A DNA stretch of 64,000 nucleotides, taken from the IMG/VR virus record IMGVR_UViG_3300032753_000003, positions 1-64,000 of that record, one strand, 5' to 3'. A program made the translations under genes and the position numbers. Positions 28,337 to 53,195 of the stretch are shown piece by piece. Within the stretch, counting starts at the first letter, position 1. Each line of letters starts with the position of its first letter. The notes under the pieces are model-generated. The model worked only from the letters and a program-made list of their open reading frames with translations, made no database searches and was not told the origin of the DNA. Origin of the DNA: a virus.

Positions 28337-28597
28337 TTATCCGTGATTCAAATACATAGACAGTGCATGGCGAGTTTTTCCTCGTCTAAAAATAATTGCC
28401 GCACAAAGATTGCTATTTTTGTCAAAACAAGGGTGCCAATACCAATCTATGTGTTGCATACCAACATTGGCTTCTAGCCACGGCTTCTAAAAATTGTTGA
28501 GATTGTCAGATGATGCATCATGCCAATCTAGATGAAGCGTATAACCGCTCATACACTTCCACCAAAGTCGATTGAATCGTTTGATCAACCAATTCAT
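28337..28597 (-). CDS. small family protein interrupted by in-frame TAG (28487-28489)
   Basis: MNWLIKRF...DNLNNF*KPWLEANVGMQHIDWYW...; GGAG SD; PWL..N.G motif shared with paralogs lies after the TAG. Confidence 0.7.
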
Positions 28598-28626
28598 AAT
28601 TTTAACTCCGTGCTAACAGACTATTG

Positions 28627-28842
28627 CTATTTCCATCTCAAACAAAATTCCATCATGCGTTCGGACGTGTCAAATGCCCATCCCTAGCTGGTATTGTCGT
28701 TAAAAGCTTGCCAATGTTTTCTTCCAAAAGTACGGGTGCACCACTCGTCGATTTCATCAACTTCTGCTATCGATATTTTGGTATCATTTGTTGCACGCCA
28801 TTTACATTTTCGATTGTGTTTTCTACGTTGATGACTGTTCAT
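28627..28842 (-). CDS. small family protein interrupted by in-frame TAG (28684-28686)
   Basis: MNSHQRRK...EWCTRTFGRKHWQAFNDNTS*GWAFDTSERMMEFCLRWK; ATGA-coupled to upstream gene; family C-terminal signature lies after the TAG. Confidence 0.75.
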
Positions 28843-29099
28843 GACCACGTCAACTTGAATAGCACAGCTTCGTCCGCAGATTCAAATACGCCTCGTCCAG
28901 GGAACAATCTCCATCCGTGCTGTATGTTAGACCGAATCCAATCATCTATTCCCCTTAGACTTATGTTATTGTCAAACGCAACCACAGTCCACCCTTCACT
29001 TACCAACTGAGCAATTCTTATCTCTGCGACAATCTCTTTGTCAATTTCTTCTCGCAGCATATCTGCTAACTGCTGAGCTAAATCGTTTTCTGTGTTCAT
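28839..29099 (-). CDS. small F-x-L-x-W family protein with N-terminal capsid-like helix
   Basis: DLAQQLADMLREEIDKEIVAEIR; ends AVLFKLTWS. Confidence 0.7.
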   Translation of the reverse strand: MNTENDLAQQLADMLREEIDKEIVAEIRIAQLVSEGWTVVAFDNNISLRGIDDWIRSNIQHGWRLFPGRGVFESADEAVLFKLTWS

Positions 29100-29344
29100 G
29101 ACCAAGTCAACATGAATTCAGTATAATGTTCTGGCTTTTTAAAATAAACTCGTAAGGTCCATTCACGACCAGGTAGATCACTTAAATATGCCCATCCCCA
29201 CTGGTCGAAACCGCCGTAGCGATCATGTGCCCATAGTATAGAATCCCTGCTAATATCATGGGATGCAAACACACAATTGCCTATAAATTTGTAGCCTTTG
29301 TGCATGCGATCAAAAAAATCAGAATCGGATATATTGCCACTCAT
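29096..29344 (-). CDS. small F-x-L-x-W family protein
   Basis: Ends EFMLTWS; ATGA overlap. Confidence 0.7.
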   Translation of the reverse strand: MSGNISDSDFFDRMHKGYKFIGNCVFASHDISRDSILWAHDRYGGFDQWGWAYLSDLPGREWTLRVYFKKPEHYTEFMLTWS

Positions 29345-29562
29345 GCCCATGTCAACCTGAATAATACTGCATCTTGGTCTAACTCAAATCTACCAAACCC
29401 CATACCAATCCAGTACTTGCCCTGGCAGTTTTCATAGCACCAGTCAAACATGATATTTCTAGTTTCATTTCGTAATACTTGCCCGCCATCAACAGGATCT
29501 TTCACCCAGACATAATGACCGGATTCGTCATCATTTAACATAAATCTTTCTAGATCTATCAT
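29341..29562 (-). CDS. small F-x-L-x-W family protein
   Basis: WCYENCQG..DAVLFRLTWA. Confidence 0.7.
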   Translation of the reverse strand: MIDLERFMLNDDESGHYVWVKDPVDGGQVLRNETRNIMFDWCYENCQGKYWIGMGFGRFELDQDAVLFRLTWA

Positions 29563-29783
29563 AACCACTCTAACTTGAATTTAACAACATCACTGCTATA
29601 TTCGCATGCCAATATCAATATGTGCTTGCCAGAACCACGCACGGCACAAGACCCACTGTCAGCAATTATATTCCATCCATAGTCCAAATTGTGCTCACAC
29701 CATTCCAGCAGTTGCTTAATACTAGCATCTACATTTGTGATGTCAAGCTCATTGTATATGTTGATCTTATGATCTCTCGGCAT
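29559..29783 (-). CDS. small F-x-L-x-W family protein
   Basis: WCEHN..DVVKFKLEWL; TAATG overlap. Confidence 0.7.
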   Translation of the reverse strand: MPRDHKINIYNELDITNVDASIKQLLEWCEHNLDYGWNIIADSGSCAVRGSGKHILILACEYSSDVVKFKLEWL

Positions 29784-30046
29784 TATGTCCATCTCAATCT
29801 AAATGACAGCACATCTCGTTCGTCGCTGAGTGAGATAAACAACATTGGATCACCGCTGTTGAATCTAAATTCACAGTCGTGGTTGCCCATACAGTTTTCG
29901 TTTAACCAAGCGGTTACATCTTCAACTGTGGCGATCGAATTGGGTCTATAACTTATTCGCCATGCAGGATCTCTAGGTTCAGTCCACTGATCGATAGCAG
30001 ACATGTATTGTGGTTTGCCGTCGTCATAGTAGATGTACACTGTCAT
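29783..30046 (-). CDS. small F-x-L-x-W family protein
   Basis: WLNENC..DVLSFRLRWT. Confidence 0.7.
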   Translation of the reverse strand: MTVYIYYDDGKPQYMSAIDQWTEPRDPAWRISYRPNSIATVEDVTAWLNENCMGNHDCEFRFNSGDPMLFISLSDERDVLSFRLRWT

Positions 30047-30282
30047 CCAAACCTCAACTTGAATTGCGTCATGTCCTCTGAGTTCTTAAAATAGATATGA
30101 GTAGGGTCAAACGACCAACGTGGAAACGTTGTGCTATTGTAGTGTAAGTGTCCTAACTTGGTAACTGCTCTATATGCACCCGGGTGGTCGGTATTAAATT
30201 TAGCGAAATTGTCAATACAATATCGCAGCATCTCCATAGTTACATTTACATGTATCGTGTGCATTACTTGTATCGTGTGCAT
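30043..30282 (-). CDS. small F-x-L-x-W family protein
   Basis: YCIDNF..DMTQFKLRFG; 18-bp tandem duplication at the start (MHTIQVMHTIHV). Confidence 0.65.
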   Translation of the reverse strand: MHTIQVMHTIHVNVTMEMLRYCIDNFAKFNTDHPGAYRAVTKLGHLHYNSTTFPRWSFDPTHIYFKNSEDMTQFKLRFG

Positions 30283-30307
30283 TACTTGTATATCTCAATA
30301 TTTTTTG

Positions 30308-30580
30308 TCATCCAAACCTCAACGCAAATTCTATCTGCTGTTCTATAGTCCTAAACCACCACCTAGCATCGGCGCCCACCGTCCCTGGTGCCATAAAATC
30401 TACCATAGGGATCCAACCCTGTGTCTCGCACCATTCTCGCTTTTGATAGCGATCTAGACAAAGTACCTGGTATTCCTGGCTTGAACCTAATCCCTCTGTA
30501 CAGGGCTCTGGCACCTTGACTCCCATACCGTGAGCAGTGAAGATTACGTCTTTGGTAGCTGGATCTCGCAATGTTATCAT
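30308..30580 (-). CDS. small F-x-L-x-W family protein
   Basis: WCETQG..QIEFALRFG; TGATG overlap. Confidence 0.7.
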   Translation of the reverse strand: MITLRDPATKDVIFTAHGMGVKVPEPCTEGLGSSQEYQVLCLDRYQKREWCETQGWIPMVDFMAPGTVGADARWWFRTIEQQIEFALRFG

Positions 30581-31044
30581 CACAGCCACCTCAGCTTGAA
30601 CAACATAGCATGTTCAGGTGTAAATGGCCAAGTGATATGGTTTTCGGCTAACCATTGTTCAACTGAATCAGTAATGTTGTTGTTATTGATCCACCACGCT
30701 AGACGGCCATCCGACCAAATAATTGCAGGTCCGTCGGCCCGATGGTGTTGACCATCGCAATACCATTCTTGTCGGCCGTTTTGGTAGATAACAGCAGGCC
30801 CGTCTGTGCGATGCAGCTGACCATTGCGATACCATCGCTGATCGACATTTGGATATATCATAGCAGGTCCGTCCTCGCGGTGCAGCTTGCCATCGTGATA
30901 CCATCCCTGATATCCATCTGGATATATGATCGCAGGTCCATCCTCGCGATGCAGCTGACCTGCACTATTGCGCCACTGACCCTCGGCGTTTTGCCACCTG
31001 TTGATGCCATTTTCTCCCACAACAAAGGTTGACTCGTCTGTCAT
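30580..31044 (-). CDS. HR[ET]DGPA-repeat protein with F-x-L-x-W tail
   Basis: Four W..G.LHR.DGPA repeats; GAGGTG SD formed by upstream L-R-W codons. Confidence 0.75.
   Translation of the reverse strand: MTDESTFVVGENGINRWQNAEGQWRNSAGQLHREDGPAIIYPDGYQGWYHDGKLHREDGPAMIYPNVDQRWYRNGQLHRTDGPAVIYQNGRQEWYCDGQHHRADGPAIIWSDGRLAWWINNNNITDSVEQWLAENHITWPFTPEHAMLFKLRWL
30869..30976. repeat. 108-bp perfect repeat, inverted copy at 49256-49363
   Basis: Base-by-base identity GTGGCGCAATAGTGCAGG...CCGCGAGGACGG. Confidence 0.9.
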
Positions 31045-31454
31045 AGCCACCTCAGCGTGAACAACATACAATCGTGATCATTTTTGAACCAAAGTATACC
31101 GTTATCAAATACGTATCCAGAGTTGCCAAACTGCTGATTACACCATGCGATACAATCCATATCTTGATCAAATGCGGTAAAATTACATGGCACATATGGA
31201 TATTTTGCTTGGAGAAAGTCATTAACAGTTTGACTCTTCTTGCGATTGTTCAAACGCAGAAACACTCGGTAATGCATCGCAGTCATCTTGATGCGCGGAT
31301 AGTACCTATACCTCATGAATGTAGATCCGCTAGGACCGATCATTGACTGTACGCCAATTATCGAATTGGCTATGATAGTGGGCATAACTTGCCTGATTAC
31401 AGGAATCAATACCGAGTTTGGAGGTATAGTACCAGATAATAAACCTGTTGTCAT
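31041..31454 (-). CDS. small family protein with N-terminal major-capsid-like segment
   Basis: LIPVIRQVMPTIIANSIIGVQSMIGP; ends LFTLRWL. Confidence 0.7.
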   Translation of the reverse strand: MTTGLLSGTIPPNSVLIPVIRQVMPTIIANSIIGVQSMIGPSGSTFMRYRYYPRIKMTAMHYRVFLRLNNRKKSQTVNDFLQAKYPYVPCNFTAFDQDMDCIAWCNQQFGNSGYVFDNGILWFKNDHDCMLFTLRWL

Positions 31455-31687
31455 GCCCATCTCAATTTAAACAGCACAGCATGGTCATGACTTTCAAACT
31501 CCCCTACTGTTGTAACTTTGGAGTTGGGATTTAGATCATTATACCACACTCGCCAATTGGGACCTATCAATCCAATTGGAAGATATCTGCCCATGATATC
31601 CAACTGCACCGGTCCTCCCATATTCTCAATTAACCAAGGTTCCATATGGTCGAGATGCGTGAACGGTATAACAACTTTATAAGTCAT
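31451..31687 (-). CDS. small F-x-L-x-W family protein
   Basis: EPWLIEN..HAVLFKLRWA. Confidence 0.7.
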   Translation of the reverse strand: MTYKVVIPFTHLDHMEPWLIENMGGPVQLDIMGRYLPIGLIGPNWRVWYNDLNPNSKVTTVGEFESHDHAVLFKLRWA

Positions 31688-31902
31688 AGCCATGTCAAGA
31701 TGAACTCAGTTTTGCAATTCGCGTGTCTGAATACGAATCCAGCTACAAGTAGATCCCATTCTCCATTTGGGTTAGTATTAGAGATAGCAGCGCCCCACTT
31801 CTCATGGCACCACAGGCGCATACGCATTAATGAGTGATAATCATCAAATGCACCTTGCACTAGATGTAATTCCTCGCCCCGATATGTGATTGTTGATCCC
31901 AT
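31684..31902 (-). CDS. small F-x-L-x-W family protein
   Basis: WCHEKWG..EFILTWL. Confidence 0.7.
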   Translation of the reverse strand: MGSTITYRGEELHLVQGAFDDYHSLMRMRLWCHEKWGAAISNTNPNGEWDLLVAGFVFRHANCKTEFILTWL

Positions 31903-31903
31903 A

Positions 31904-32098
31904 TTATACCCAAGCTAATTTAAACATCATAGCAAATTCGTAATCATAAAATTCAAAACACAATCTATTGCTCCAATAGAACCAATAGAAGTCAACGGTA
32001 TGAACAAGACCGCGGTCTTCGCACCAACAAGTTGCATCTACAGCCAATTGGTCTGTGATATTGCTTCTACCTCTGTGTTCAAACTTCACAACAACCAT
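31904..32098 (-). CDS. small F-x-L-x-W family protein
   Basis: WCEDRG..AMMFKLAWV. Confidence 0.7.
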   Translation of the reverse strand: MVVVKFEHRGRSNITDQLAVDATCWCEDRGLVHTVDFYWFYWSNRLCFEFYDYEFAMMFKLAWV

Positions 32099-32125
32099 GT
32101 AAAATTCAATGCAACTACAATTCCT

Positions 32126-32287
32126 CTATGCCCATCTCATAATAAACGCGATACGATCCTCGTCAGTCTCAAAGATAAAATATGTTCCAACTCTTGTACA
32201 AGGTATACCCTCATCCTAACACCACTGTCGTATTTCTGCTAGTTGATAAACTAGATTGGGTGCATGGTATCTATAGTTGATATTCAA
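32126..32287 (-). pseudogene. small family gene with in-frame TAG (32216-32218); start uncertain (TTG 32287)
   Basis: ..LAEIRQWC*DEGIPCTRVGTYFIFETDEDRIAFIMRWA; no clear SD/ATG in frame. Confidence 0.55.
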
Positions 32288-32317
32288 AATTGATATCCAT
32301 ATTAAAATTATACATAA

Positions 32318-32325
32318 TATAAATA
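32318..32325 (+). promoter_or_regulatory. T4-like late promoter
   Basis: TATAAATA upstream of endonuclease gene. Confidence 0.7.
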
Positions 32326-32389
32326 TGTGGTAATTGAAGATGTATCAGATCTTCAAAACACAGCACGGAGATACTGTGCTGTCCCACAT
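32325..32389. ncRNA. three-way-junction structured element with complementary loops
   Basis: P1 ATGTGG/CCACAT, P2 TTGAAGAT/ATCTTCAA, P3 ACAGCAC/GTGCTGT; loops carry GTATC and GATAC. Confidence 0.55.
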
Positions 32390-32415
32390 TGTTAATATAT
32401 ACGGAGGAAATAATT

Positions 32416-33246
32416 ATGTCAATGATATTGTGTGCATATGGGTGTGGAAATGTTGCAATATATTTCAATCGGCAACAAGTAGGTAGATGTTCATTTAGGC
32501 CTAGCGTTTGTGAAGGTATACGCGCCCGCGCCAAACAATCTATCAAAAATAGATACGCATCAAAAACTGAAGAAGAGAAACAGTTAATTAAAAATCGCAG
32601 GTTAGCAACAAATATTAAAAAATATGGTGTTGCTAATGTATCTTCAGTTGAATCAGTTAAACTTAAAAAAGAACAAACTTTTTTAGACAAGTTTGGTACT
32701 ACTAACCCGTCCCAAAACACAGATATACGCGCAAAAATTAAAGATAAGATGCCTGTAGTTCTTAAGAAACGTAAAAAAACTAATTTAGATAGATATGGAG
32801 TTGAGCACTACTCTAGTACAGAGGAATTTAAATCTAGACGTAAAATAACCTGGACCAAAAGATACGGAGCAGATAATCCAAGTAAAAATAATAATATCAA
32901 AGACAAAATTATGAAAGGACAGGATCATAGAAGAACTAACAAGATAATTATTTTAAATGGACAAATTGTTAGAGTACAAGGTTATGAAGATCAAGTTATA
33001 CGAGATTTAATAAAATCTGGAATTTCAGAATCTGAGATAATATGTGATAGGGATAGGATACCAAAGATATCATATACCATAGATAATAAAGTTAGAACCT
33101 ATTACCCTGATATATATCTTCCTAGATATAACATTTTGATAGAAGTTAAATCGTTATACACTTGGAAGAAATATAAGGCTATTAATATTGCTAAAATTAG
33201 TTCTGCTAAACATGCAGGATATAATGTACGTGTGGCTATACGTTAG
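32416..33246 (+). mobile_element. free-standing PD-(D/E)XK (TnsA-like) homing endonuclease with KYGV.N.S repeats
   Basis: YYPDIYLPRYNILIEVKS; GGAGG SD; AT-rich; antisense to neighbours. Confidence 0.8.
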
Positions 33247-34187: not shown

Positions 34188-34188
34188 G

Positions 34189-35070: not shown

Positions 35071-35134
35071 TGGCAACCTCTTGTAATTGACAAGAGTATT
35101 TATGCTAGATTCGAAACTAGACGGCGTATATCCA

Positions 35135-35968: not shown

Positions 35969-35989
35969 GGGATCTCCTTTTGATGATGC

Positions 35990-36017
35990 ACTATAACATC
36001 TGTACTAGAGATGTCAA
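35990..36017 (-). promoter_or_regulatory. sigma70-type promoter of ligase
   Basis: TTGACA-N16-TATAGT with TG extension. Confidence 0.65.
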
Positions 36018-36026
36018 CCAAGATGG

Positions 36027-37012: not shown

Positions 37013-37240
37013 TTATTGCCAAACCAACTTGAAGGCAACAAAATCGCTACGCTTTTCAAATCTCACAGTATATTTTCCTAACTTGTAACTGCCTGTACAA
37101 TTGCTATGGCACCAATTCATAGCTTGAGCACGACTATGGTCATCAGAGAAGTTTAAATATTCCACAAACGGCATTTCATGTGTGAGATTTGCATCTTGTA
37201 TAACTTCCAACACAGGACCTAAAATTGAGTATGTCATCAA
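37013..37240 (-). CDS. small F-x-L-x-W family protein
   Basis: WCHSNC..DFVAFKLVWQ. Confidence 0.7.
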   Translation of the reverse strand: MMTYSILGPVLEVIQDANLTHEMPFVEYLNFSDDHSRAQAMNWCHSNCTGSYKLGKYTVRFEKRSDFVAFKLVWQ

Positions 37241-41947: not shown

Positions 41948-42328
41948 TTAGAACAGCTTTAGATGTCCAGTCACAGCATCTATCTTGTCTGCACTGTCTG
42001 GACCAACTGCCACCGTGGTTAGAGTTGGCACTCCGTTAAATTCAGTAAGACCGCTATCTCGGATGATACTGCAGATCAAACCAGCAGCTTGTGCTTTGGC
42101 ATAAATGTCAAGAAGTTCTTGTTCGCTGTCTACGCTAACACAAATCTTCTTGAACAAGCCTGTGATCCACGGCTTCAATCTATCGTCCATGTGCAAGGTT
42201 AGCGTATCACCGTGTACTTCACATTGATCCAATATGGCTTTGAGGCTGGCATGCGCCAACTGGGCCATCATTTTGCCTTTTCGACATTTTAAATCTTTTC
42301 TGACAACTATTACTTGTTTGTGATTCAT
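41948..42328 (-). CDS. pth2: peptidyl-tRNA hydrolase, Pth2 family
   Basis: KQVIVVRKDL..GKMMAQLAHAS, KKIC, DSGLTEF, T.VAVGP. Confidence 0.92.
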   Translation of the reverse strand: MNHKQVIVVRKDLKCRKGKMMAQLAHASLKAILDQCEVHGDTLTLHMDDRLKPWITGLFKKICVSVDSEQELLDIYAKAQAAGLICSIIRDSGLTEFNGVPTLTTVAVGPDSADKIDAVTGHLKLF

Positions 42329-42353
42329 AATATTCCTCAATTATCTAGTTATA

Positions 42354-42770
42354 TCACTCAGGTATAATTCTATACGGAACATTTCCGCCATATTTTGTAA
42401 ACATCAATATCTCTGATTTGGGATATCCATTCTCCACTAGCCATTCCTCAATCCTATCCATTTGATCATCGGGTATTGGTTTGGGAAATCCCCATTTCCA
42501 ACCTCCCGGAGGATCTATCAAGGTGCGAGGACCTTTGCCGTTCCAGGTTAGATTAAACACAGTAGCATCTTGTTGATTACTGAACAACCATGTACTAAAA
42601 TCTCTGTCTGTTACATGCGGCGAACCTGTTAAGGCTGGTCGCCAAGTTATACCACTGTTGTCTATGCCAAACTGATCTATACACCATCCCATGATGTCTC
42701 GATGATGTTCAAGCTCGTACCACCTGCTGATGGTTACACGATAGGGGAATTGTTCATCTAACTTAGCCAT
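42354..42770 (-). CDS. fusion of small-family domain and DPPGGWKWGFPK module
   Basis: WCIDQFG..DATVFNLTW followed by IDPP.GW.WGFPKP. Confidence 0.7.
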   Translation of the reverse strand: MAKLDEQFPYRVTISRWYELEHHRDIMGWCIDQFGIDNSGITWRPALTGSPHVTDRDFSTWLFSNQQDATVFNLTWNGKGPRTLIDPPGGWKWGFPKPIPDDQMDRIEEWLVENGYPKSEILMFTKYGGNVPYRIIPE

Positions 42771-43229: not shown

Positions 43230-43601
43230 TTAACCCCAAGCTAACAAGAATTCTGTTGCATGTTTGCTATCATCGATTCCGACACATACTACCATAAATG
43301 CTCGAGATATAGTCTTACCGTAAGTTGTATCAGAATCTCCGCTTTGTACACCCAACCATTTGATATCGCGTTCTCGCAACCACGAGTCCATATCAGGATA
43401 ATATTTTTCTAGCCAACAATGTATAGCTGCATCATGATGATTGCGATATCCTAGTGCATATAGACCTTCGTAATCATCAGGATAATCAAACTCGTGTCTG
43501 TAATCCCACTCAACTTCAGCCACTACAAAATTGTGCCCACAAAAGTAATTTGGTAGCTTTTTAACCGTATCATATAGTCTGTGATACTTATGAATGGTCA
43601 T
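43230..43601 (-). CDS. small-family-related protein
   Basis: Ends HATEFLLAWG. Confidence 0.6.
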   Translation of the reverse strand: MTIHKYHRLYDTVKKLPNYFCGHNFVVAEVEWDYRHEFDYPDDYEGLYALGYRNHHDAAIHCWLEKYYPDMDSWLRERDIKWLGVQSGDSDTTYGKTISRAFMVVCVGIDDSKHATEFLLAWG

Positions 43602-45157: not shown

Positions 45158-45161
45158 TCAT

Positions 45162-45674: not shown

Positions 45675-46240
45675 TACCCTTGATAGATCATTTCTTTGCC
45701 CATCATAGCCATAACTTCTGCTACATATGTTCCTTTGCCAACGTGTTTGCCTTCGATAATGAGATTGTCGTCAACACACACCAGGGTTCCTGGACGCAAC
45801 GCACCTTTGATAGCTAAAAGCTCATAGATATGATGCTGCGCACTAGGGTGCCAATTGTTGATATCGAGATCATAACTGTCCAAGTAGAGCAAGTCAATCT
45901 TGCGATCTAGCTTATCATATTCTTTCTCTTTGGTAGACAAAAACGCAACACTATCTCCACAATAGATCATAGTGCGATTACTGGTACGAGACGAAGTGAA
46001 GCTACACGCTTCTTGACTGAGATCTACGCTTTGCACAGTGCCATCTAGTTCATTGGCAACTGCATCCCAGATCAGCGAACTCATACCATCTCCAAACCAA
46101 TTGTTCTCCTGACGACTGACACCAGTTTCAACCACAAGTGGATATTTGCAAGTACGCAAGTGATCAACCATCAACCTAAATGCAGGTTCTCTCTTGTCAG
46201 TCTTTGACAGCATCTCTTCTAGAGTTAACTTGTTAATCAT
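45653..46240 (-). CDS. class I SAM-dependent methyltransferase (Methyltransf_24-like)
   Basis: VVETG, DSV.FL, IDLLYLDS, VDDN, GKG. Confidence 0.8.
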   Translation of the reverse strand: MINKLTLEEMLSKTDKREPAFRLMVDHLRTCKYPLVVETGVSRQENNWFGDGMSSLIWDAVANELDGTVQSVDLSQEACSFTSSRTSNRTMIYCGDSVAFLSTKEKEYDKLDRKIDLLYLDSYDLDINNWHPSAQHHIYELLAIKGALRPGTLVCVDDNLIIEGKHVGKGTYVAEVMAMMGKEMIYQGYQWVWRW

Positions 46241-46451
46241 GCATACTCTCCTGTTGAGTGTCTTGTGATTCTGTATCTAAAAATTGCACTATATATTGTT
46301 CTGTATAGATAGCTTTGCGATCTGGTATAAACCCTCGTTTAGCTGCCGACCAAAGTTTGAACGCTTCCCACAATGGCGGATTGATTTCCCAACAGGGCCT
46401 ATCTCTAGGTTGATCTATAGTGTACCAAAATCTATTGTCTCTATTGCTCAT
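46233..46451 (-). CDS. hypothetical protein
   Basis: ORF coupled to methyltransferase. Confidence 0.5.
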   Translation of the reverse strand: MSNRDNRFWYTIDQPRDRPCWEINPPLWEAFKLWSAAKRGFIPDRKAIYTEQYIVQFLDTESQDTQQESMHD

Positions 46452-46490
46452 AACTAAATGATAAGGGTATTACACTATATGTCAATGGTC

Positions 46491-46520
46491 TTGACAAATT
46501 CATTAGCTGCATCTTAATAT
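46491..46520 (+). promoter_or_regulatory. sigma70-type promoter of the tRNA
   Basis: TTGACA-N18-TAATAT, about 8 nt before G1. Confidence 0.6.
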
Positions 46521-46528
46521 AATAACAT

Positions 46529-46604
46529 GCGCCGTTGGGCCAGATGGATGGCCGGTCAACTCTAAATCGACACAAGGTAGGTTCGATACCTACACGGCGC
46601 ACCA
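46529..46604 (+). tRNA. amber suppressor tRNA (anticodon CUA)
   Basis: 76 nt cloverleaf: GCGCCGT/ACGGCGC-A-CCA, GGCC/GGCC, loop CT-CTA-AA (46562-46564), GTAGG-TTCGATA-CCTAC. Confidence 0.92.
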
Positions 46605-46607
46605 ACA

Positions 46608-47357
46608 TTATTTGCGTTTCAGTTGACCTTTGACCCATCCAGTTGGGCAAACATCGGATAAACAATTATTAACTCCGTTGTTATACCACTTTAGACCTTT
46701 AGTGCTTTTACATTTAAGTTGTCCAGATTTCCAACCATCTGGACAACTTTGTGACATCATACTTTCGATGCCATTGTTATACCATTTCCATCCAATTGGC
46801 TTTCCGGTTTGACCTTTGAGTCGTCCGGGCACCCATCCCGGAGGACATTCTAGTAATTGTTTTGCTTTAATTCCATTATTATAGAACTTTTTACCAGGTA
46901 ATCTTCCATTTACCCATCCAGCTGGACATTCGCTGCACCAGCGCTCCTCAAGTCCATTATTGTACCATGTATGGTGTTGTTTAGTGATACTATAAGCCAA
47001 TTTAATTCTAGAATAATTTCTTGAATTAAGTTGGCGTAGTTGATTACTGCTCGAACGATTAAACGCAATTAATGCATATTCCATTTTTATACGGTAAGAA
47101 CTATTTTTACTCACCATCTTTGGTAATAAGAGATGAAAAATGAAGTGTTCTCGAGCAGTTAATAATACACAATTCCATGGGTGTACAGTTAAGTTTTTAT
47201 ATTCAGGGAATAATGATTCAGGTAGAATATGATGTCTCTCATAATAAACACCTTTACCTTTTGATCTCAATTCTACTAGAGCAGAATTAATAATATTATA
47301 ATACCATCTAGTATATTTGTTATCAGAAAACACGCCATTATGGCTATAAATATTCAT
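46608..47357 (-). mobile_element. HNH homing endonuclease with WYNNG..CP.GW..G repeats
   Basis: YERHHILP..N.V.LTAREHF..H.LL; GGGGAG SD; ends 4 nt from tRNA CCA. Confidence 0.85.
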
Positions 47358-47360
47358 GCT

Positions 47361-47422
47361 GTTGCTCCCCAAAGCGATAGAGTAGTTGGGGCGACCAACC
47401 CGCGAACTACATGTTATTTATG
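47361..47422 (-). promoter_or_regulatory. late promoter plus alternative-stem leader controlling endonuclease SD
   Basis: CATAAATA; GTAGTT/AACTAC stem versus CCCCAA/TTGGGG stem covering SD. Confidence 0.55.
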
Positions 47423-47496
47423 TTACATATCAAGTGTAGTTAATTCGTCTAACTGCTAATAAATACACGATATCTTTGTAATAATAGGTACGTGTT

Positions 47497-48339
47497 ATGA
47501 AAATTACAGAATTGAATTATAAATTAGATGAAGATGTAGAAGGTCAAATAGCAGCTAGAGCTAAATTTATTAAAGATAAATTTGGATCACAGTGGCATGG
47601 TGTATCTGGTTATGAAGATATTGATAAATTCATAGAAAAATTGATTCAAGTTGATCCAAGCCTCAAAAAGATTTACATTCCTTGGATGGCTAGGTTGATC
47701 ATCACCAAACCAACTGAGAACCGTGCAGAAGACCTAGACAGAGTAGGACAGGACCTGCAGGCATTTGAAGCCAACAAAGCCAAGATTGCCAACAAAGACA
47801 TCAACTCTTACAAGAGCTTCCAAGATCTATTTGATGTCATAGCTCCATTCCTAGCACCAAAAAAGAAAACTAAAGATGAATTAGCCAAGGAAAAAGAAAA
47901 GGCTGCTCTTGAGAAGGTCAAAGCAGACATCATAACTGTATATCAGGGTCCAGAAGGTTGGATAAGAATTCCAACCACCCAGGCTGCTGCTACATTCCTC
48001 GGACAGGGTACACGTTGGTGTACAGCCGCACAAAAGAACAACATGTTCAGCCATTACGCTAAAGATGATAACCTATTTGTGGTTTATGACAAGACTTCAA
48101 AAGAGCGCTTTCAGTTGCACATACAAAGTGGCCAATTTGCTAGCGAAGATGATCGCAACGAGGGACTTGGTGCAGTTCCAGAATGGGCTGGTAAGATAAT
48201 ATTGGATTATTATCAAAAGCACAATCCCAAATTGACCATGAAGCAACTTATGGCGTTGCAGGGATTTACTAAAGACAATTTGGCTGCGGGAACCGAGCAC
48301 GAAGGACTATTTGATCTTTTTAAACAATATGGAATTTAA
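47497..48339 (+). CDS. PcfJ-like domain protein with MKITEL leader
   Basis: AA.FLGQGTRWCTAA..N.F..Y motif. Confidence 0.65.
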   Translation: MKITELNYKLDEDVEGQIAARAKFIKDKFGSQWHGVSGYEDIDKFIEKLIQVDPSLKKIYIPWMARLIITKPTENRAEDLDRVGQDLQAFEANKAKIANKDINSYKSFQDLFDVIAPFLAPKKKTKDELAKEKEKAALEKVKADIITVYQGPEGWIRIPTTQAAATFLGQGTRWCTAAQKNNMFSHYAKDDNLFVVYDKTSKERFQLHIQSGQFASEDDRNEGLGAVPEWAGKIILDYYQKHNPKLTMKQLMALQGFTKDNLAAGTEHEGLFDLFKQYGI

Positions 48340-48342
48340 TCC

Positions 48343-48693
48343 ATGCGGTTAAATGACATCTTCGAGTATGAGGCCAAACCTATAAATGAAGAGGCTGATG
48401 CAAAACTTGATAAAATAAGCAGCGAATTTACAGACATGTCTGTAATTGGACCTATGACCAAATTGCAAAAATACTATAACCACAATTACAACGTATCGGT
48501 ATCAAGTATACGTACTGTACTTGAGAACAATAAAAACTCCATAATTAAATTTATGTTGTCACATATAAAAATATTCGATAAAAATTCGGTTAGAATGGTA
48601 TTGGTTGATCTTCGCAACTTTGATATAGAATGGCCAGAACTTGATATCATACAAAAAGGTTTAGAAACTATGAATAAAAAGGCAGGACAATGA
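48343..48693 (+). CDS. protein with MRLNDI leader and DWPEL module
   Basis: DIEWPELDIIQ. Confidence 0.65.
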   Translation: MRLNDIFEYEAKPINEEADAKLDKISSEFTDMSVIGPMTKLQKYYNHNYNVSVSSIRTVLENNKNSIIKFMLSHIKIFDKNSVRMVLVDLRNFDIEWPELDIIQKGLETMNKKAGQ

Positions 48694-49673
48694 AAATATT
48701 GGATATTTTTAAACCAATAGCAGTCCGTACCAAACCAAACACTGTGGCAGCAAATTGGATAAGCGAAAATGAAAATACTCAATCGCAACTTGAGGATTTG
48801 GTAGCCAGTAAATTTGAGGAAATACGACGTTCTAGAGTAACACTTGCATTGAGAGGCCTGTTGGAGACCTTTGTAAGAAACAACCTCAATACCAGTGAAA
48901 TGCGCAGACTACTGGCTCCCTATAATTTGGATATTGTAAAAAAGATTGATGGGGATTTGAGTGGTAGAGCTATAACAATAGGTGTAAGAGATCTTTGGAA
49001 TTTGCACAAATTAGAATTAGTTACGCCTGAGATGATAAACGCTGTAAACAAAAACAAAGTAACGATTATTAGAGAATTATTGACTGTAATAAAAGATACT
49101 GGTTCTCCGCTTAGTGTCATGGGACTGGTTAGAAATCTCAAAAACGTAGGTATTGATTGGCCAGAACTTGATATTATAGAAAACAGTACAAAACCTAGGT
49201 TAGAAGAGTCTGGTGACGAGTCAACTATGACTGTTGAATCAGATGGAGACAAATTGTGGCGCAATAGTGCAGGTCAGCTGCATCGCGAGGATGGACCTGC
49301 GATCATATATCCAGATGGATATCAGGGATGGTATCACGATGGCAAGCTGCACCGCGAGGACGGGCCTGCTGTGACTGAGCCAGATGGTTCACAATATTGG
49401 TATCAAAATGACCGTCTGCATCGAGAAGATGGGCCTGCGGTTGTTTGGCCATCTGGCACTATGGAATGGTGGCACAATGGCAAAAATATAACAAAAGTAG
49501 CACTGATCGAGTTAGCCCGGGCAGGTGACAAAGCTACCGTGTTAAAACAATTGTTGATACCAATTAAAAAGTATATGTCATTTGATCAATCACTTAAATT
49601 AATAAAATTATTAAAAAATGCAGGTATCGATTGGCCAGAGTTTGCAGCTATAGAAAAGAGTGCAAAAAAATGA
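48690..49673 (+). CDS. modular protein: MKILDI leader, two DWPEL modules, HREDGPA repeats
   Basis: GIDWPEL, 3x HREDGPA, GIDWPEF. Confidence 0.7.
   Translation: MKILDIFKPIAVRTKPNTVAANWISENENTQSQLEDLVASKFEEIRRSRVTLALRGLLETFVRNNLNTSEMRRLLAPYNLDIVKKIDGDLSGRAITIGVRDLWNLHKLELVTPEMINAVNKNKVTIIRELLTVIKDTGSPLSVMGLVRNLKNVGIDWPELDIIENSTKPRLEESGDESTMTVESDGDKLWRNSAGQLHREDGPAIIYPDGYQGWYHDGKLHREDGPAVTEPDGSQYWYQNDRLHREDGPAVVWPSGTMEWWHNGKNITKVALIELARAGDKATVLKQLLIPIKKYMSFDQSLKLIKLLKNAGIDWPEFAAIEKSAKK
49256..49363. repeat. 108-bp perfect repeat, inverted copy of 30869-30976
   Basis: Direct comparison. Confidence 0.9.
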
Positions 49674-50071
49674 AGATAAATGAAATAGTTGAAAATGCCA
49701 AGAAGAAACTTAATCCCGAGCAAGCCGAAATGCTGTTGGATATTGTCAACCATAAAATAAAAAGAGCCGGTATCTTTATAGCATTATATGACATTGACAC
49801 TTGGGGTCTAACTGTATCTATACTTCCTGAACTAGAACAAATATTAGATGCACACAAAGAATTAATCATCAAGCGCATGCTAAAAAGCATAAAAGCAAAC
49901 GACCACGGGTTAGAAGATACAGAACAAGTGTTGTCTAGGTTAGAACATACTGGTATCAATTGGCTAGAATTGGCAATCATACGACGTAGTTTGGATATCG
50001 AACAAGGCAAGAACATCAATCGCATCAACGAAGCATCAATAGTAAATACTATACTTAAAAAAGGTAATTAA
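49670..50071 (+). CDS. protein with MKINEI leader and DWPEL-type module
   Basis: Start reassigned (ATGA overlap); GINWLEL. Confidence 0.65.
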   Translation: MKINEIVENAKKKLNPEQAEMLLDIVNHKIKRAGIFIALYDIDTWGLTVSILPELEQILDAHKELIIKRMLKSIKANDHGLEDTEQVLSRLEHTGINWLELAIIRRSLDIEQGKNINRINEASIVNTILKKGN

Positions 50072-50072
50072 C

Positions 50073-51335
50073 ATGAAAATGTCCGACGTGATAGTCCTAG
50101 AGGAACAACAAAATATCATCAATGAAAATCTTGGTAATTTGGCACAGCTTCATGTTGGTCCTCTTATCAATGTCTTGAAGCAGACAGGCTATCAGGGTGG
50201 TAAGCGTGGTGGTACAATCATATACCCTGCTGGTGAGAAATTTGCCAAATCTTATGGATATCAAATAGGCAGCACAAGTGAGATTGTGAACATTGGTGTT
50301 CTCAAAGATGGTATCAAAACCCTGCGCAAAGCATTCAAGACGCACGAAGGCGCGCGGGGATTTGCTGTATATATTGGCGATCAAGCTGTGATGTTTGGTA
50401 CTACTGATTCAGGAACACTAGCAGGTGCAAGTAGGTCTGGCAAGTTAGCATACGATCTTACTCCATTTGAAGAAAAGTGGAAAGAATTGCATGTCAAAGG
50501 TTATAAAGGTTGGGGAGAACTCCGTATACCGCCAACTACTACTATAAAAGATCGAGAATCATCTGAATGGGAAGGTAGCAAAAGCATTACCAAAGTTAGA
50601 AAATATTACGGTGATATGATTGACACTGCTACACTGGCAGGAATATTAGACAAAATTGTTACTATTGGTAAAGAACTTAACTTGCCTGTAACAGCCAAGC
50701 TGGTTATGGGAGATGTGATAGGGTATGAAAAACGCAAAGAGCGTTACAGTTTAGCTCAAATTGGTGCAGGTGCTAAAGATCTCAGAACTAGACTGGCTAT
50801 CTACAAAAATCAAAAAAATCCAACTGTGGATACAATAGAAGACTTTGTCAAAATGAGTCTTGAGAACCCAGGTAAGAGCGTGCAGTTTGCAGGTACTACT
50901 TACAAATTGGTCCAGGCGTCATATGACAAAATTGGTGTAATTGATCTGCTCAGCGGCAAATCATTTACTACAGATTACAAGAGCGTTGACCCAGGATCAA
51001 CAGATAGTTTGACCATGACCTATAGATATGATAGATCAAGCAATCAACTTGTACCAATCAAGGCCACATGGTATGATAGGAGAGATCCCGCTAACAAGTA
51101 CAAGAGACAGGAAACGGTCCTCGATGCTAAAGGTTATTTAATAAATGAAATTGGTATACGTAAGTTAGACAAGTCAGTTGTAATACCCAAACTATTAGAG
51201 CTCTTCAAAGCTTCTCAATATGAGAGACTCAAGTTGGCAATAGGTTCTCTAAAAAAGATGGGTGCAGATTGGCCAGAACTTGATACTATACAAAATAGTG
51301 TTAATGTAGAGCTAGCCAAGAAAAACGCTACCTGA
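50073..51335 (+). CDS. hypothetical protein with MKMSDV leader and C-terminal DWPEL module
   Basis: MGADWPELDTIQNSV. Confidence 0.7.
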   Translation: MKMSDVIVLEEQQNIINENLGNLAQLHVGPLINVLKQTGYQGGKRGGTIIYPAGEKFAKSYGYQIGSTSEIVNIGVLKDGIKTLRKAFKTHEGARGFAVYIGDQAVMFGTTDSGTLAGASRSGKLAYDLTPFEEKWKELHVKGYKGWGELRIPPTTTIKDRESSEWEGSKSITKVRKYYGDMIDTATLAGILDKIVTIGKELNLPVTAKLVMGDVIGYEKRKERYSLAQIGAGAKDLRTRLAIYKNQKNPTVDTIEDFVKMSLENPGKSVQFAGTTYKLVQASYDKIGVIDLLSGKSFTTDYKSVDPGSTDSLTMTYRYDRSSNQLVPIKATWYDRRDPANKYKRQETVLDAKGYLINEIGIRKLDKSVVIPKLLELFKASQYERLKLAIGSLKKMGADWPELDTIQNSVNVELAKKNAT

Positions 51336-51336
51336 T

Positions 51337-52566
51337 ATGTCAGCTAAGTCACTACCTTGTTCCCAAATGTGGGAGAAGTTTATGATAAATGCCATAGAAG
51401 GTTATATCAGAACTTGTTGGGATAGAGACAACTCATATGTTACAGTTGACGAGATACGGCACTTGGGTCCCGATCTCTTCACCAAGCATCCTGATATCAT
51501 CAATGATCGTGAATGTTTCATAGATAAAAATAAATTACCATACAAGTGTAAAATATGTATTAACAATTACGGTAATACTAAAGATAACCTACATAACTTA
51601 TGGAAGAATGATGTATTTGATGAAAATAAATTAGATTCGTTACGAGAAGCTGACCTCATTGATAAGATTGACTTTTACTTAGATAGGACCTGTAACCAAA
51701 CATGTTTATATTGTAACAAGGAACATAGCACAGACTGGGCTAGTTTATTAGGTGAGAAAACTTCTAATAAAAATGTAAATCAAGAATGGCACGACGCTAT
51801 ATTAGATGCATTTTATGCATATATAAAGAGGCGGTTGAGCAGTAACAATGCACCTATAGAATATGGATTTGCAGGCGGAGAACCATTTTTAAATTTAAAT
51901 CTTCCTGATATCATAAACAAGATAATAGATCTACATAGAGTCTACGGTAGAGATACTAAATGCGGATTTGAGTTTACAACCAATCTCAATGTCAAACCGT
52001 TGTTAATTGACAGATTTATTGCAATAGCAAATAAAAATCCTAAATTTGATTGGAAAATATCATGCAGCCTCGATGCCCCTGGTCGAGTAGGTGAGGAGAT
52101 ACGGTCTGGTCTAAATTTCAAAGTTTTTGATGCTAATTTTAGGAAATTACTAAAAGAAACAGACATGCATATAGATATATTACCGTCTATTAGTAACGTC
52201 AGCGTGTCTTCAATGCCATCATTACTTACATACATTATAGAAACTATGGAAGAGTATCAAATACCCGATAATAGATGGAACCTCGGTGCAAATTTGATTA
52301 ACCATCCAACCGCTATGCATGTTAGTACATTACCGATCAGTTATAAACATTACATCGATTTATCTATTAAGCTGGTAGAGGGATCTCATATTGACTATTA
52401 TTTCATACCCTATCTCATGAAGATACACCAATTGATCGGCACTAGGCGAGATAAAGATAGTATAACCAATGTCAAAGAGTTCTTTGAATATAATGGTCGT
52501 TTGAGAGGCAAAGATTATTGGTGTATATTTGAGTCGTTGTCAGATATAGTCTCAGAGAATGCATAG
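51337..52566 (+). CDS. radical SAM protein
   Basis: CNQTCLYC, FAGGEPFL, FTTN, SLDA. Confidence 0.88.
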   Translation: MSAKSLPCSQMWEKFMINAIEGYIRTCWDRDNSYVTVDEIRHLGPDLFTKHPDIINDRECFIDKNKLPYKCKICINNYGNTKDNLHNLWKNDVFDENKLDSLREADLIDKIDFYLDRTCNQTCLYCNKEHSTDWASLLGEKTSNKNVNQEWHDAILDAFYAYIKRRLSSNNAPIEYGFAGGEPFLNLNLPDIINKIIDLHRVYGRDTKCGFEFTTNLNVKPLLIDRFIAIANKNPKFDWKISCSLDAPGRVGEEIRSGLNFKVFDANFRKLLKETDMHIDILPSISNVSVSSMPSLLTYIIETMEEYQIPDNRWNLGANLINHPTAMHVSTLPISYKHYIDLSIKLVEGSHIDYYFIPYLMKIHQLIGTRRDKDSITNVKEFFEYNGRLRGKDYWCIFESLSDIVSENA

Positions 52567-52600
52567 TTGGGCTACCATAAATATTTAAAAAGGATCAGCC

Positions 52601-53023
52601 ATGAAAGACCATAAAACAAGTCCAAGACTACGTAATCCTCATAAGGAAGTGCGTGCCAACCTCAGCCTAAGTGATAAAGTGGCTATGTGGATCACCGAAA
52701 AAGTTGGTACCATGGGATTCTTTGGTATAATATTTGGGTGGACAGTGCTGTGGCTAAGTTGGAATATGTTTGCTCCTGCAGCATATCAATTTGATCCTTA
52801 CCCTGCATTTGTTCTATGGTTGTTCATTAGCAATCTTATACAAATACTGCTAATGCCTTTGATCATGGTTGGGCAGAATGTGCAAGGACAACATAGCGAA
52901 GCTAGAGCACAACATGATTTAGAAGTCAATGTCAAAGCTGAAGAAGAAATACGTACCATACTCGAGCATCTAGAGAAACAGAACGAGATGCTGATAACGT
53001 TGGTAAAGAAACTAGGCGATTAA
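52601..53023 (+). CDS. DUF1003-like membrane protein
   Basis: DKVA..IT..VGTM.FF..FDPYP..L..IM.GQN. Confidence 0.8.
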   Translation: MKDHKTSPRLRNPHKEVRANLSLSDKVAMWITEKVGTMGFFGIIFGWTVLWLSWNMFAPAAYQFDPYPAFVLWLFISNLIQILLMPLIMVGQNVQGQHSEARAQHDLEVNVKAEEEIRTILEHLEKQNEMLITLVKKLGD

Positions 53024-53028
53024 TAATC

Positions 53029-53057
53029 TTGCATCAATTAAAAACAGAATGTATATT
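53029..53057 (+). promoter_or_regulatory. sigma70-type promoter
   Basis: TTGCAT-N17-TATATT; predicted +1 at about 53063-53064. Confidence 0.65.
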
Positions 53058-53063
53058 GTAAAC

Positions 53064-53195
53064 ATGAGCTACTAGGTTTCAACCACTAACTTTCGCAAAC
53101 ATAGCGTAACCCAGGACGCTGAGATACATTGTGATCTCAGGCCTGGGTTTCTTTTTGACTCAACGCTAACAATCACACAAGGAGAATCACTATGA
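53064..53195 (+). promoter_or_regulatory. leaderless uORF Met-Ser-Tyr-amber with 43-codon readthrough frame (candidate attenuator)
   Basis: ATG AGC TAC TAG then open frame to TGA 53193-53195 overlapping ATG 53192. Confidence 0.55.
53108..53156 (+). terminator. intrinsic terminator inside leader
   Basis: AACCCAGG/CCTGGGTT plus CTGAGAT/ATCTCAG stems, then TTTCTTTTT. Confidence 0.8.

What the first reader, a model, noticed from the sequence alone, without database searches (positions are those of the whole stretch)
28337..53195. Candidate selective amber-readthrough regulon: CUA tRNA, amber-interrupted paralogs and an amber-sensing attenuator
Seen: (i) a complete CUA-anticodon tRNA with its own sigma70-type promoter; (ii) three genes of one paralog family, each broken by a single in-frame TAG, with family motifs continuing after it (28487, 28684, 32216); (iii) a leaderless MSY-amber uORF whose readthrough frame crosses a terminator. 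No convincing internal TAA/TGA-broken gene was found. Long core ORFs are intact under the standard code, and several genes still end in TAG (2135, 4323, 37504, 52566), so this is not genome-wide recoding. Established: some phages encode suppressor tRNAs and switch codes late in infection. Inference: amber is used here as a sparse conditional switch that gates a few accessory genes on tRNA supply versus host RF1. Three of three TAG is only modest statistical support, and CAG/TGG-to-TAG nonsense mutation remains possible.
Basis: partly seen in the sequence, partly recalled or inferred. Interest (0 to 1): 0.85.

Follow-up and report, generated by a model that had tools for sequence, protein, structure and literature searches.

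The report
Phage amber-suppressor tRNA, few TAG-broken genes
A large standard-code phage carries a normal-looking tRNA that reads the UAG stop codon and four otherwise intact accessory genes broken by one UAG, but it also has genes broken by the other two stops, so leaky rescue of broken spare genes fits better than a designed switch.

Summary
The sequence facts hold. A canonical 76-nt tRNA(CUA) lies at 46529-46604, and three members of a roughly 27-copy family of small genes each carry one in-frame TAG. I found a fourth TAG-broken gene outside the window at 69100-69744. Its homologues are unbroken, and the closest ones have Gln at that site.

The 'regulon' reading is not carried by the evidence:
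- The genome uses the standard code. TAG ends 23-32 genes, including both DNA polymerase halves.
- Two of the three broken paralogs also end in TAG.
- The whole contig also holds two TGA-broken genes and one TAA-broken gene that look just as intact. That makes 4 of 7 breaks TAG, against about 1 in 3 expected (P about 0.2).
- The tRNA and the paralog array both sit behind early-type sigma-70-like promoters.
- No release factor or GlnRS/GluRS-type synthetase gene was found.
- The MSY-amber 'attenuator' is a pattern that intergenic gaps here show by chance.

Best reading: these are nonsense alleles in redundant accessory genes, tolerated and probably leakily read through by the phage's own suppressor. 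This matches the early step towards TAG recoding proposed by Borges et al.

Limits: no close relative exists to test conservation, and the contig is about 39% of the genome. Earlier notes of this scan describe conserved amber-gated PTH2 cassettes in other phages. That cassette is absent here.

The parts
46529..46604 (+). tRNA with anticodon CUA (amber-suppressor type). It has a canonical cloverleaf, G1-C72, A73, encoded CCA, anticodon loop C-U-CUA-A-A and an A30-C40 mismatch. Its amino-acid identity is unknown.
   Evidence: ARAGORN. Rfam RF00005: 44.5 bits. No close tRNA in phage records, IMG/VR or bacterial genomes. Best identity to any tRNA of this phage or its relatives is 55 of 76.
46491..46520 (+). 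Sigma-70-like promoter candidate for the tRNA (TTGACA-18-TAATAT). It sits back to back with a TTGACA-16-TATCAT site at 46485-46458 on the minus strand.
   Evidence: This is a consensus match only and is not enriched over shuffles.
46608..47372 (-). HNH homing endonuclease gene. Its stop codon lies 4 nt from the tRNA 3' end, in convergent orientation.
   Evidence: phrog_655, E 1.9e-25. Thirty-nine homologous loci in IMG/VR carry no adjacent tRNA, so there is no sign of a mobile endonuclease-tRNA cassette.
28337..28597 (-). Small-family paralog ('gene 1'), 86 codons, with an in-frame TAG at 28487-28489 (codon 37). It has a GGAG ribosome-binding site 8 nt before the ATG and ends in TAA.
   Evidence: Translation. 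The PWL..N.G..DW and F....A.S motifs after the TAG match neighbouring paralogs. The family profile does not detect it.
28627..28842 (-). Small-family paralog ('gene 2') with an in-frame TAG at 28684-28686 (codon 53). Its true stop, after the ...CLRWK motif, is also TAG (28627-29). Its start overlaps the upstream gene's stop (ATGA).
   Evidence: Translation. Profile hits report '1 TAG'.
32126..32287 (-). Small-family paralog ('gene 3'), the first gene of the array, with an in-frame TAG at 32216-32218 (codon 24). Its true stop, after ...FIMRWA, is also TAG. It has a TTG start and no visible ribosome-binding site. Reading through the end would fuse it in frame to the next paralog.
   Evidence: Translation. 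Profile hits report '1 TAG'.
28069..32098 (-). Tandem array of 13 intact members of the same family (64-163 aa, motif W-C..N...W.....F.L.W followed by the stop). Most stops overlap the next start. More copies lie at 37016-37240, 42540-42719, 43233-43391 and 61723-64054.
   Evidence: No Pfam or PHROG family matches. The AlphaFold2 model is a beta-beta-alpha-beta-beta-alpha fold with pLDDT 75.6 and no PDB fold match.
32394..32422 (-). Strong sigma-70-like promoter candidate (TTGACA-17-TATATT, 11 of 12) that heads the paralog array.
53064..53075 (+). ATG-AGC-TAC-TAG mini-ORF. It has no ribosome-binding site, and the putative promoter at 53029-53057 matches only 8 of 12 positions.
   Evidence: The pattern is common by chance in this genome's gaps.
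53108..53156 (+). Intrinsic terminator hairpin with a U-tract. It lies 85 nt after the stop of the DUF1003 gene (52601-53023) and is most simply that gene's terminator.
   Evidence: Fold of the 141-nt stretch 53060-53200 that holds the hairpin: -32.4 kcal/mol, z -2.7, with no alternative antiterminator in the MFE or centroid structure. DUF1003: E 9.7e-26.

Best explanation
The window is part of a 200-kb contig of a T4-like jumbo phage. CheckV estimates the contig at about 39% of the genome. The phage is related to the Atu_ph07 / PA5oct group, uses the standard code and encodes 37 tRNAs. One tRNA is set apart from the tRNA zone at 97-171 kb and has the anticodon CUA. It is canonical in shape and probably transcribed by host RNA polymerase. 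If a host synthetase charges it, it will insert an amino acid at every UAG at some partial efficiency (inferred, not shown). Four non-core genes each carry a single in-frame TAG and are otherwise intact: three members of a roughly 27-copy small-protein family, and one of two tandem copies of a 215-aa protein family. Most likely these are ordinary nonsense alleles (for example CAG or GAG to TAG) in redundant accessory genes. They persist because the suppressor still lets some full-length protein be made. This is tolerated leakiness, the early step on the road to TAG recoding proposed for phages, and not a purpose-built regulon. The mini-ORF and hairpin at 53064-53156 are an ordinary terminator region, not an amber sensor.
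For: The tRNA is real and canonical, with A37 and A38 in the loop and a well-placed promoter-like site. The code is standard: coding density is 0.909 under code 11 and rises only to 0.923 with TAG read as sense; TAG ends 23 of 270 to 32 of 294 genes, including both polB halves. Three TAG-interrupted family members keep their family motifs after the TAG, and no family copy carries TAA, TGA or a split match. The fourth TAG gene, 69100-69744, aligns end to end with its neighbour paralog (E 2.5e-50) and with 28 unbroken 192-334-aa homologues. It keeps all 21 invariant residues, 17 of them downstream of the TAG. Six of its eight closest aligned homologues have Gln at the TAG column. Borges et al. 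(bioRxiv 10.1101/2021.08.26.457843, read) propose exactly this order of events: a rare stop, then acquisition of a suppressor tRNA, then accumulation of in-frame stops. A distant relative that I read whole (G003) also carries a lone tRNA(CUA) in a standard-code genome.
Against: Nothing shows that the tRNA is expressed, charged or active, and it has an A30-C40 mismatch in the anticodon stem. TAG enrichment is not significant genome-wide: 4 TAG, 2 TGA and 1 TAA, P about 0.17-0.2. The TGA- and TAA-broken genes look as intact as the TAG-broken ones, so an intact-looking remainder is no proof of suppression. TAG-terminated genes show no enrichment of nearby back-up stops, which argues against strong suppression. 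Gene 3 has a TTG start and no ribosome-binding site, and looks like a decaying gene. G003 has a tRNA(CUA) but no detectable TAG-broken genes.
Confidence: 0.5

Rival explanations
1. Plain pseudogenes. The four TAG-broken genes are dead or dying copies in fast-turnover paralog families. The tRNA(CUA) has nothing to do with them: it may be inactive, uncharged or serve another purpose.
For: The same contig holds TGA-broken (99716, 131221) and TAA-broken (87656) genes that look equally intact. The TAG excess is not significant. Gene 3 lacks an ATG start and a ribosome-binding site. The C-terminal LDP.R motif of 69100-69744 has drifted to IEPHQ. G003 has the tRNA but no TAG-broken genes.
Against: Within the small family all three lesions are TAG, with no TAA, TGA or frameshift among about 27 copies. 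A canonical CUA tRNA with its own promoter would read these codons if it is charged at all.
Confidence: 0.27
2. Programmed amber gating. The in-frame TAGs are kept by selection, so that a few accessory proteins are made only as tRNA(CUA) outcompetes host RF1.
For: A dedicated tRNA co-occurs with four TAG-interrupted, otherwise intact genes. Earlier notes of this scan report conserved amber-gated genes next to tRNA(CUA) in other standard-code large phages (unchecked leads).
Against: The TAG positions lie mid-gene at variable family columns, not at a shared early codon. The two PTH2-family genes of this phage are not TAG-gated, and early ATG-x-TAG starts are not enriched. Two gated genes also end in TAG. 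The tRNA and the array both have early-type promoters. Homologues have sense codons at the one testable site. No release factor or GlnRS/GluRS-type synthetase gene was found in the contig. The 'attenuator' is at chance level.
Confidence: 0.15
3. Assembly or consensus artefact. The TAGs (and the TGA and TAA breaks) are sequencing errors or minority alleles in a metagenome-assembled contig.
For: The record is an uncultivated-virus contig classed as linear and about 39% complete. Seven single-codon breaks in 200 kb is rather many.
Against: All seven are base substitutions to stops with no frameshifts. Errors of that kind are uncommon in assemblies, and none falls in a core gene.
Confidence: 0.05

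Closest known systems
Stop-codon-recoded phages with phage-encoded suppressor tRNAs (TAG read as Gln, 'code 15': crAss-like, Lak and others) and their standard-code relatives that have acquired a suppressor tRNA (Borges et al., bioRxiv 10.1101/2021.08.26.457843; Peters et al., PMC9523058)
   Same: A phage-encoded tRNA(CUA) and in-frame TAGs in phage genes. The host presumably uses the standard code. The one TAG site that could be checked sits at a Gln column of the closest homologues. The proposed order of events (suppressor first, in-frame stops later) fits.
   Different: Only 4 in-frame TAGs were found in 200 kb. They lie in small early-region accessory paralogs, not in late structural or lysis genes. 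TAG still ends about 9-11% of genes, including core replication genes. Coding density barely changes under code 15. No RF2 gene was found. TGA- and TAA-broken genes also occur.
Suppressor-type tRNAs noted in standard-code cultured phages, such as tRNA-Sup-TTA of the Klebsiella jumbo phage phiKp24 (PMC8386662), and laboratory T4 psu suppressors that rescue nonsense mutants (McClain 1970, as cited there)
   Same: A lone suppressor-anticodon tRNA in a large, tRNA-rich, standard-code phage. Rescue of nonsense alleles is the function discussed for them.
   Different: Here the candidate target alleles are visible in the same genome. No experimental data exist for this tRNA.
Leader-peptide transcription attenuators (trpL, hisL type)
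   Same: A short ORF lies upstream of an intrinsic terminator and a downstream gene.
   Different: There is no ribosome-binding site, only a weak promoter, and no alternative antiterminator fold. The pattern occurs at chance frequency. The hairpin sits where the upstream DUF1003 gene's terminator would be expected.
'Amber-gated PTH2-like gene next to tRNA(CUA)' cassettes described in earlier notes of this scan (for example e1-5370690, e1-5953590; unpublished AI notes)
   Same: A standard-code large phage with its own tRNA(CUA) and PTH2-family genes.
   Different: Both PTH2-family genes here start normally, have no early TAG, and are not adjacent to the tRNA (they lie 4.2 kb and 24 kb away).

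Membership tests
Amber suppressor tRNA (Sup-CUA) | Canonical tRNA cloverleaf that scores as a tRNA | tested here: met
   ARAGORN cloverleaf. RF00005: 44.5 bits against a 29-bit cut-off. There is one A30-C40 mismatch.
Amber suppressor tRNA (Sup-CUA) | Anticodon CUA at positions 34-36, with U33 and a purine at 37 | tested here: met
   The loop reads C-U-C-U-A-A-A.
Amber suppressor tRNA (Sup-CUA) | Is aminoacylated and inserts an amino acid at UAG in vivo | not testable with these tools
   No isotype could be assigned. The best identity to any tRNA compared is 55 of 76. A73 and G1-C72 are unlike E. coli tRNA-Gln (from my knowledge of GlnRS identity elements).
Pyrrolysine tRNA (ARAGORN's label) | Atypical Pyl architecture: 6-bp anticodon stem, 3-nt variable loop, small D-loop lacking GG | tested here: not met
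   The cloverleaf has a 5-bp anticodon stem, a 5-nt variable loop, a D-loop with GG and a TTCGA T-loop. The 'Pyl' label only reflects the CUA anticodon.
Code-15 (TAG-recoded) phage genome | Many genes need TAG read as sense; coding density and gene length rise clearly under code 15 | tested here: not met
   Density is 0.909 under code 11 and 0.923 with TAG as sense; reading TGA as sense gives 0.918. Only 4 homology-supported in-frame TAGs were found.
Code-15 (TAG-recoded) phage genome | TAG is not used as a true stop | tested here: not met
   TAG ends 23 of 270 to 32 of 294 genes, including both polB halves.
Code-15 (TAG-recoded) phage genome | Code-change helper genes (RF2, aminoacyl-tRNA synthetase), present in some members | tested here: not met
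   PF00472 (RF-1 domain) and PF00749 (GlnRS/GluRS catalytic domain) give no hit in the contig. The contig is about 39% complete.
Leader-peptide or readthrough-sensing transcription attenuator | A translatable leader ORF with a start signal | tested here: inconclusive
   The ATG at 53064 has no ribosome-binding site. The leaderless model rests on an 8-of-12 promoter that the scan does not report.
Leader-peptide or readthrough-sensing transcription attenuator | Terminator plus a mutually exclusive antiterminator, or an arrangement beyond chance | tested here: not met
   A terminator is present, but no alternative fold appears. The same ORF pattern is found in 17, 13 and 8 of 114 gap-strands for TAG, TGA and TAA.
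Leader-peptide or readthrough-sensing transcription attenuator | Conserved in relatives | not testable with these tools
   No close relative exists: UvdE identity is at most 65% in IMG/VR and JGI contigs.
Amber-gated PTH2 cassette (earlier scan notes) | A PTH2-like gene with TAG at codon 3-5, adjacent to the tRNA(CUA) | tested here: not met
   The PTH2 genes at 41948-42340 and 70337-70831 have no stops inside and normal ATG starts.

The most novel reading that the evidence does not exclude
A standard-code jumbo phage uses its own tRNA(CUA) as a deliberate low-efficiency gate. It keeps single UAG codons inside a handful of accessory genes, so that their full-length products appear only as the suppressor accumulates and outcompetes RF1. 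That would be a stable, sparse, gene-specific form of recoding, not a step towards whole-genome code change.
Probability: 0.15. Interest if true: 0.7.

Novelty: new member of a known kind. Interest (0 to 1): 0.38.

Why it matters
Phage stop-codon recoding is thought to begin when a standard-code phage acquires a suppressor tRNA and in-frame stops then become tolerable. Genomes caught at that early stage are rarely described. This contig could be one: it has a suppressor, a handful of in-frame TAGs in dispensable genes, and TAG still serving as a stop in core genes. If the tRNA is active, it would also be a natural case for measuring how a phage lives with partial readthrough of its own TAG-terminated genes. 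If it is inactive, the finding reduces to ordinary gene decay in a jumbo phage.

Tried and rejected
- Close relatives for a TAG-conservation or dN/dS test: the UvdE neighbour was searched in IMG/VR and JGI metagenomes. The best identity was 65%, so the test could not be run. Megablast against phage records found nothing.
- Origin or isotype of the tRNA: blastn against phage records, an exact 40-mer in IMG/VR, and two exact patterns in 185,579 bacterial genomes gave no tRNA match. The 40 D-arm hits were random. Pairwise comparison with 100-odd phage tRNAs gave no clear parent.
- Mobile endonuclease-tRNA cassette: 39 HNH homologue loci carry no tRNA.
- Coding-potential scans for further broken genes were too noisy on short segments and mostly found adjacent in-frame genes.
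- Back-up stops after TAG-terminated genes are not enriched.
- tRNA(CUA) in 13 related contigs: one was found, in G003. G003, read whole, uses the standard code and shows no paralog-supported broken genes.
- The amber-gated PTH2 lead from earlier notes does not apply here.
- Function of the small family: no Pfam, PHROG or PDB fold match.

Full report
WHAT THE DNA IS. The window is the first 64 kb of a single 199,865-bp virus contig with 40% G+C. CheckV rates it about 39% complete. Its family-B DNA polymerase is split into two genes. The N-terminal half (4323-5990), which I searched, is closest, at 46-50% identity, to the jumbo phages Sinorhizobium phage Phosso, Agrobacterium phage Atu_ph07 and Pseudomonas phage PA5oct. 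The contig encodes a sigma-70 homologue, UvdE, a PTH2 hydrolase and 37 tRNAs. Hundreds of aquatic metagenome contigs carry UvdE at 55-65% identity, but none is close.

THE tRNA. ARAGORN finds one tRNA in the window, at 46529-46604 (+), with anticodon CTA. The other 36 tRNAs lie between 97 and 171 kb. It is a regular 76-nt cloverleaf:
- acceptor G1-C72 with discriminator A73 and an encoded CCA end;
- a D-loop with GG, a 5-nt variable loop and a TTCGA T-loop;
- anticodon loop C-U-CUA-A-A;
- one A30-C40 mismatch in the anticodon stem.

The Rfam tRNA model scores it 44.5 bits. ARAGORN's 'Pyl' label only reflects the anticodon; the architecture is not that of tRNA-Pyl. A TTGACA-18-TAATAT site ends 8 nt before the 5' end and sits back to back with a TTGACA-16-TATCAT site for the minus-strand gene 46233-46451. 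An HNH homing endonuclease gene abuts the 3' end, but 39 homologous endonuclease loci have no tRNA beside them. I could not assign an amino acid. No similar tRNA exists in phage records, IMG/VR or bacterial genomes, and the best identity to any tRNA of this phage or its relatives is 55 of 76.

THE CODE. The genome uses the standard code. Greedy ORF coverage is 0.909 under code 11. It is 0.923 with TAG as sense, 0.918 with TGA as sense and 0.907 with TAA as sense. TAG ends 23 of 270 (scored gene set) to 32 of 294 (length-based set) genes, including both polymerase halves. TAG-terminated genes have no more nearby back-up stops than the others. No release-factor gene and no GlnRS/GluRS-type synthetase gene was found in the contig.

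THE TAG-INTERRUPTED GENES. The minus strand from 32287 to 28069 is a tandem array of small genes. They share the pattern W-C..N...W......F.L.W followed directly by the stop, and that stop usually overlaps the next start. My own HMM and the genome search profile find 25-27 copies in the contig. Only two matches contain a stop, each '1 TAG'.

Direct translation confirms three broken members:
- 28337-28597, TAG at codon 37;
- 28627-28842, TAG at codon 53;
- 32126-32287, TAG at codon 24.

Family motifs continue after each TAG. Two points argue against clean recoding. Genes 2 and 3 also end in TAG exactly where the family ends, so the same codon would have to be read through inside the gene and obeyed at its end. 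Gene 3 has a TTG start and no ribosome-binding site.

A self-comparison of the whole contig found a fourth and stronger case outside the window. The gene 69100-69744 aligns over 205 residues (E 2.5e-50) with its upstream neighbour 68374-69030, across a TAG at 69298. Twenty-eight database homologues are unbroken proteins of 192-334 aa. The broken gene keeps all 21 invariant residues, 17 of them after the TAG. Six of its eight closest aligned homologues have Gln at the TAG column. This fits either a CAG-to-TAG mutation or TAG read as Gln. Its C-terminal LDP.R motif has drifted.

IS TAG SPECIAL? The same self-comparison, backed by comparison with relatives, also found three genes broken by the other stops:
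- a TGA-broken paralog, 99479-100048 against 111934-112530, E 1.9e-42;
- a TGA-broken GIY-YIG endonuclease, with TGA at 131221;
- a TAA-broken radical-SAM/SPASM gene, with TAA at 87656. It is unbroken in its paralog and in relatives (E 2e-60 against G003), and it has no start codon for 109 codons after the break.

From this phage's codon usage, random single-base nonsense mutations would yield TAG 33-39% of the time. That gives P(3 of 3) of about 0.04-0.06 for the family and P(at least 4 of 7) of about 0.17-0.2 for the contig. Within the family, the lack of any frameshifted or TAA/TGA-broken copy is suggestive, but that argument is post hoc.

THE 'ATTENUATOR'. ATG-AGC-TAC-TAG lies at 53064-53075. 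A strong hairpin with a U-tract lies at 53108-53156, and the TAG-readthrough frame stays open to a TGA that overlaps the next start. Against the attenuator reading:
- the proposed promoter matches only 8 of 12 positions and is not reported by the scan;
- there is no ribosome-binding site;
- no alternative fold appears;
- the hairpin sits 85 nt after the DUF1003 gene's stop, where that gene's terminator would be expected;
- an ATG followed within 10 codons by a stop and then at least 30 open codons occurs in 17 (TAG), 13 (TGA) and 8 (TAA) of 114 gap-strands in this genome.

This part is at chance level.

TIMING AND RELATIVES. The array is headed by an 11-of-12 sigma-70-like promoter at 32422-32394, and the tRNA has a similar one. 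Both look like early, host-polymerase transcripts, so no early-to-late code switch is visible.

Of 13 related contigs scanned with an anticodon-loop/T-loop pattern, one has a tRNA(CUA): the complete 364-kb IMG/VR genome G003. There too the tRNA lies about 100 kb from the main tRNA array, inside a run of small genes. G003 uses the standard code (density 0.947, TAG ends 25 of 443 genes) and has no paralog-supported broken genes. The two tRNAs are not clearly homologous.

EARLIER NOTES OF THIS SCAN. Several notes on other genomes describe a conserved 'amber-gated' PTH2-like gene, with TAG at codon 3-5, next to a tRNA(CUA) in standard-code large phages. I tested that lead here. Both PTH2-family genes (41948-42340 and 70337-70831) are intact, start normally and are not adjacent to the tRNA. 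Early ATG-x-TAG starts are not enriched either. Another first-reader note had independently flagged the TAG at 69298.

READING. Shown by the data: the tRNA, the four TAG breaks, the three non-TAG breaks, and standard-code usage. Inferred: the tRNA is expressed and charged, and therefore reads all UAGs partially.

On that inference the simplest account is that nonsense alleles in redundant accessory genes are tolerated and leakily expressed. This matches the evolutionary route proposed by Borges et al., in which a suppressor tRNA comes first and in-frame stops accumulate afterwards.

Plain pseudogenes unconnected to the tRNA remain a strong rival. Programmed gating is not excluded, but nothing measured here calls for it. 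Suppressor-type tRNAs in standard-code jumbo phages have been noted before, for example in phiKp24 (PMC8386662). I therefore class this as a new member of a known kind, of moderate interest.

Noticed in passing
G000 contig 69100-69744 (L161:2100-2744): A fourth TAG-interrupted gene lies outside the window, with TAG at 69298. It is a tandem paralog of 68374-69030. Homologues are unbroken 192-334-aa proteins of unknown function with the motifs KIAVLFRGP.RP and MYYQS. The closest ones have Gln at the TAG column.
   Followed up: yes
G000 contig 99479-100048, 131146-131640, 87332-88621 (L163, L164, L162): Three genes are broken by other stops: TGA at 99716 (paralog of 111934-112530), TGA at 131221 (GIY-YIG endonuclease) and TAA at 87656 (radical SAM/SPASM gene, unbroken in relatives). 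They show that TAG is not the only stop that breaks genes in this contig.
   Followed up: partly
IMGVR_UViG_3300042350_002797 (G003) 350196-350271; L254:1470-1545: A distantly related, complete 364-kb standard-code phage also has a lone tRNA(CUA). It lies about 100 kb from that phage's 24-tRNA array, inside a run of small same-strand genes. No TAG-broken genes were detected there.
   Followed up: partly
window 31041-31460 (-): A small-family member whose N-terminus is a fragment of the T4-type major capsid protein (Pfam Gp23 positions 6-46, E 3.5e-8; phrog_138). The paralog at 28839-29105 has a weaker Gp23 hit.
   Followed up: no
window 30580-31071 (-): A family member with an N-terminal run of MORN-like repeats (G.LHREDGPA..Y; Pfam DUF6745, E 2e-9) fused to the family's C-terminal domain.
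   Followed up: no
window 41948-42340 (-) and contig 70337-70831 (+): Two PTH2-family peptidyl-tRNA hydrolase genes (109 and 23 bits). The second is preceded by an in-frame ATG-AGG-AAA-TAA mini-ORF two codons before its ATG.
   Followed up: partly
window 2135-5990 (-): The family-B DNA polymerase is split into two genes (4323-5990 and 2135-3382), both ending in TAG, with a + strand gene (3426-4010) between them.
   Followed up: no
window 46458-46520: Back-to-back TTGACA promoter-like sites drive the tRNA (+) and the 72-aa gene 46233-46451 (-). Transcription from the tRNA promoter would run antisense into the HNH endonuclease gene.
   Followed up: no
contig 101292-101379 and 107744-107829: Both tRNA-Gln genes carry the same extra insert of about 16 nt in the variable region (seen in the ARAGORN output). 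Another note of this scan already covers it.
   Followed up: no
window 59579-59593 (+): An in-frame ATG-AGT-AAA-ATC-TAG mini-ORF ends four codons before the ATG of the sigma-70 homologue gene (59594-61090). It was seen in the control scan and is probably chance.
   Followed up: no
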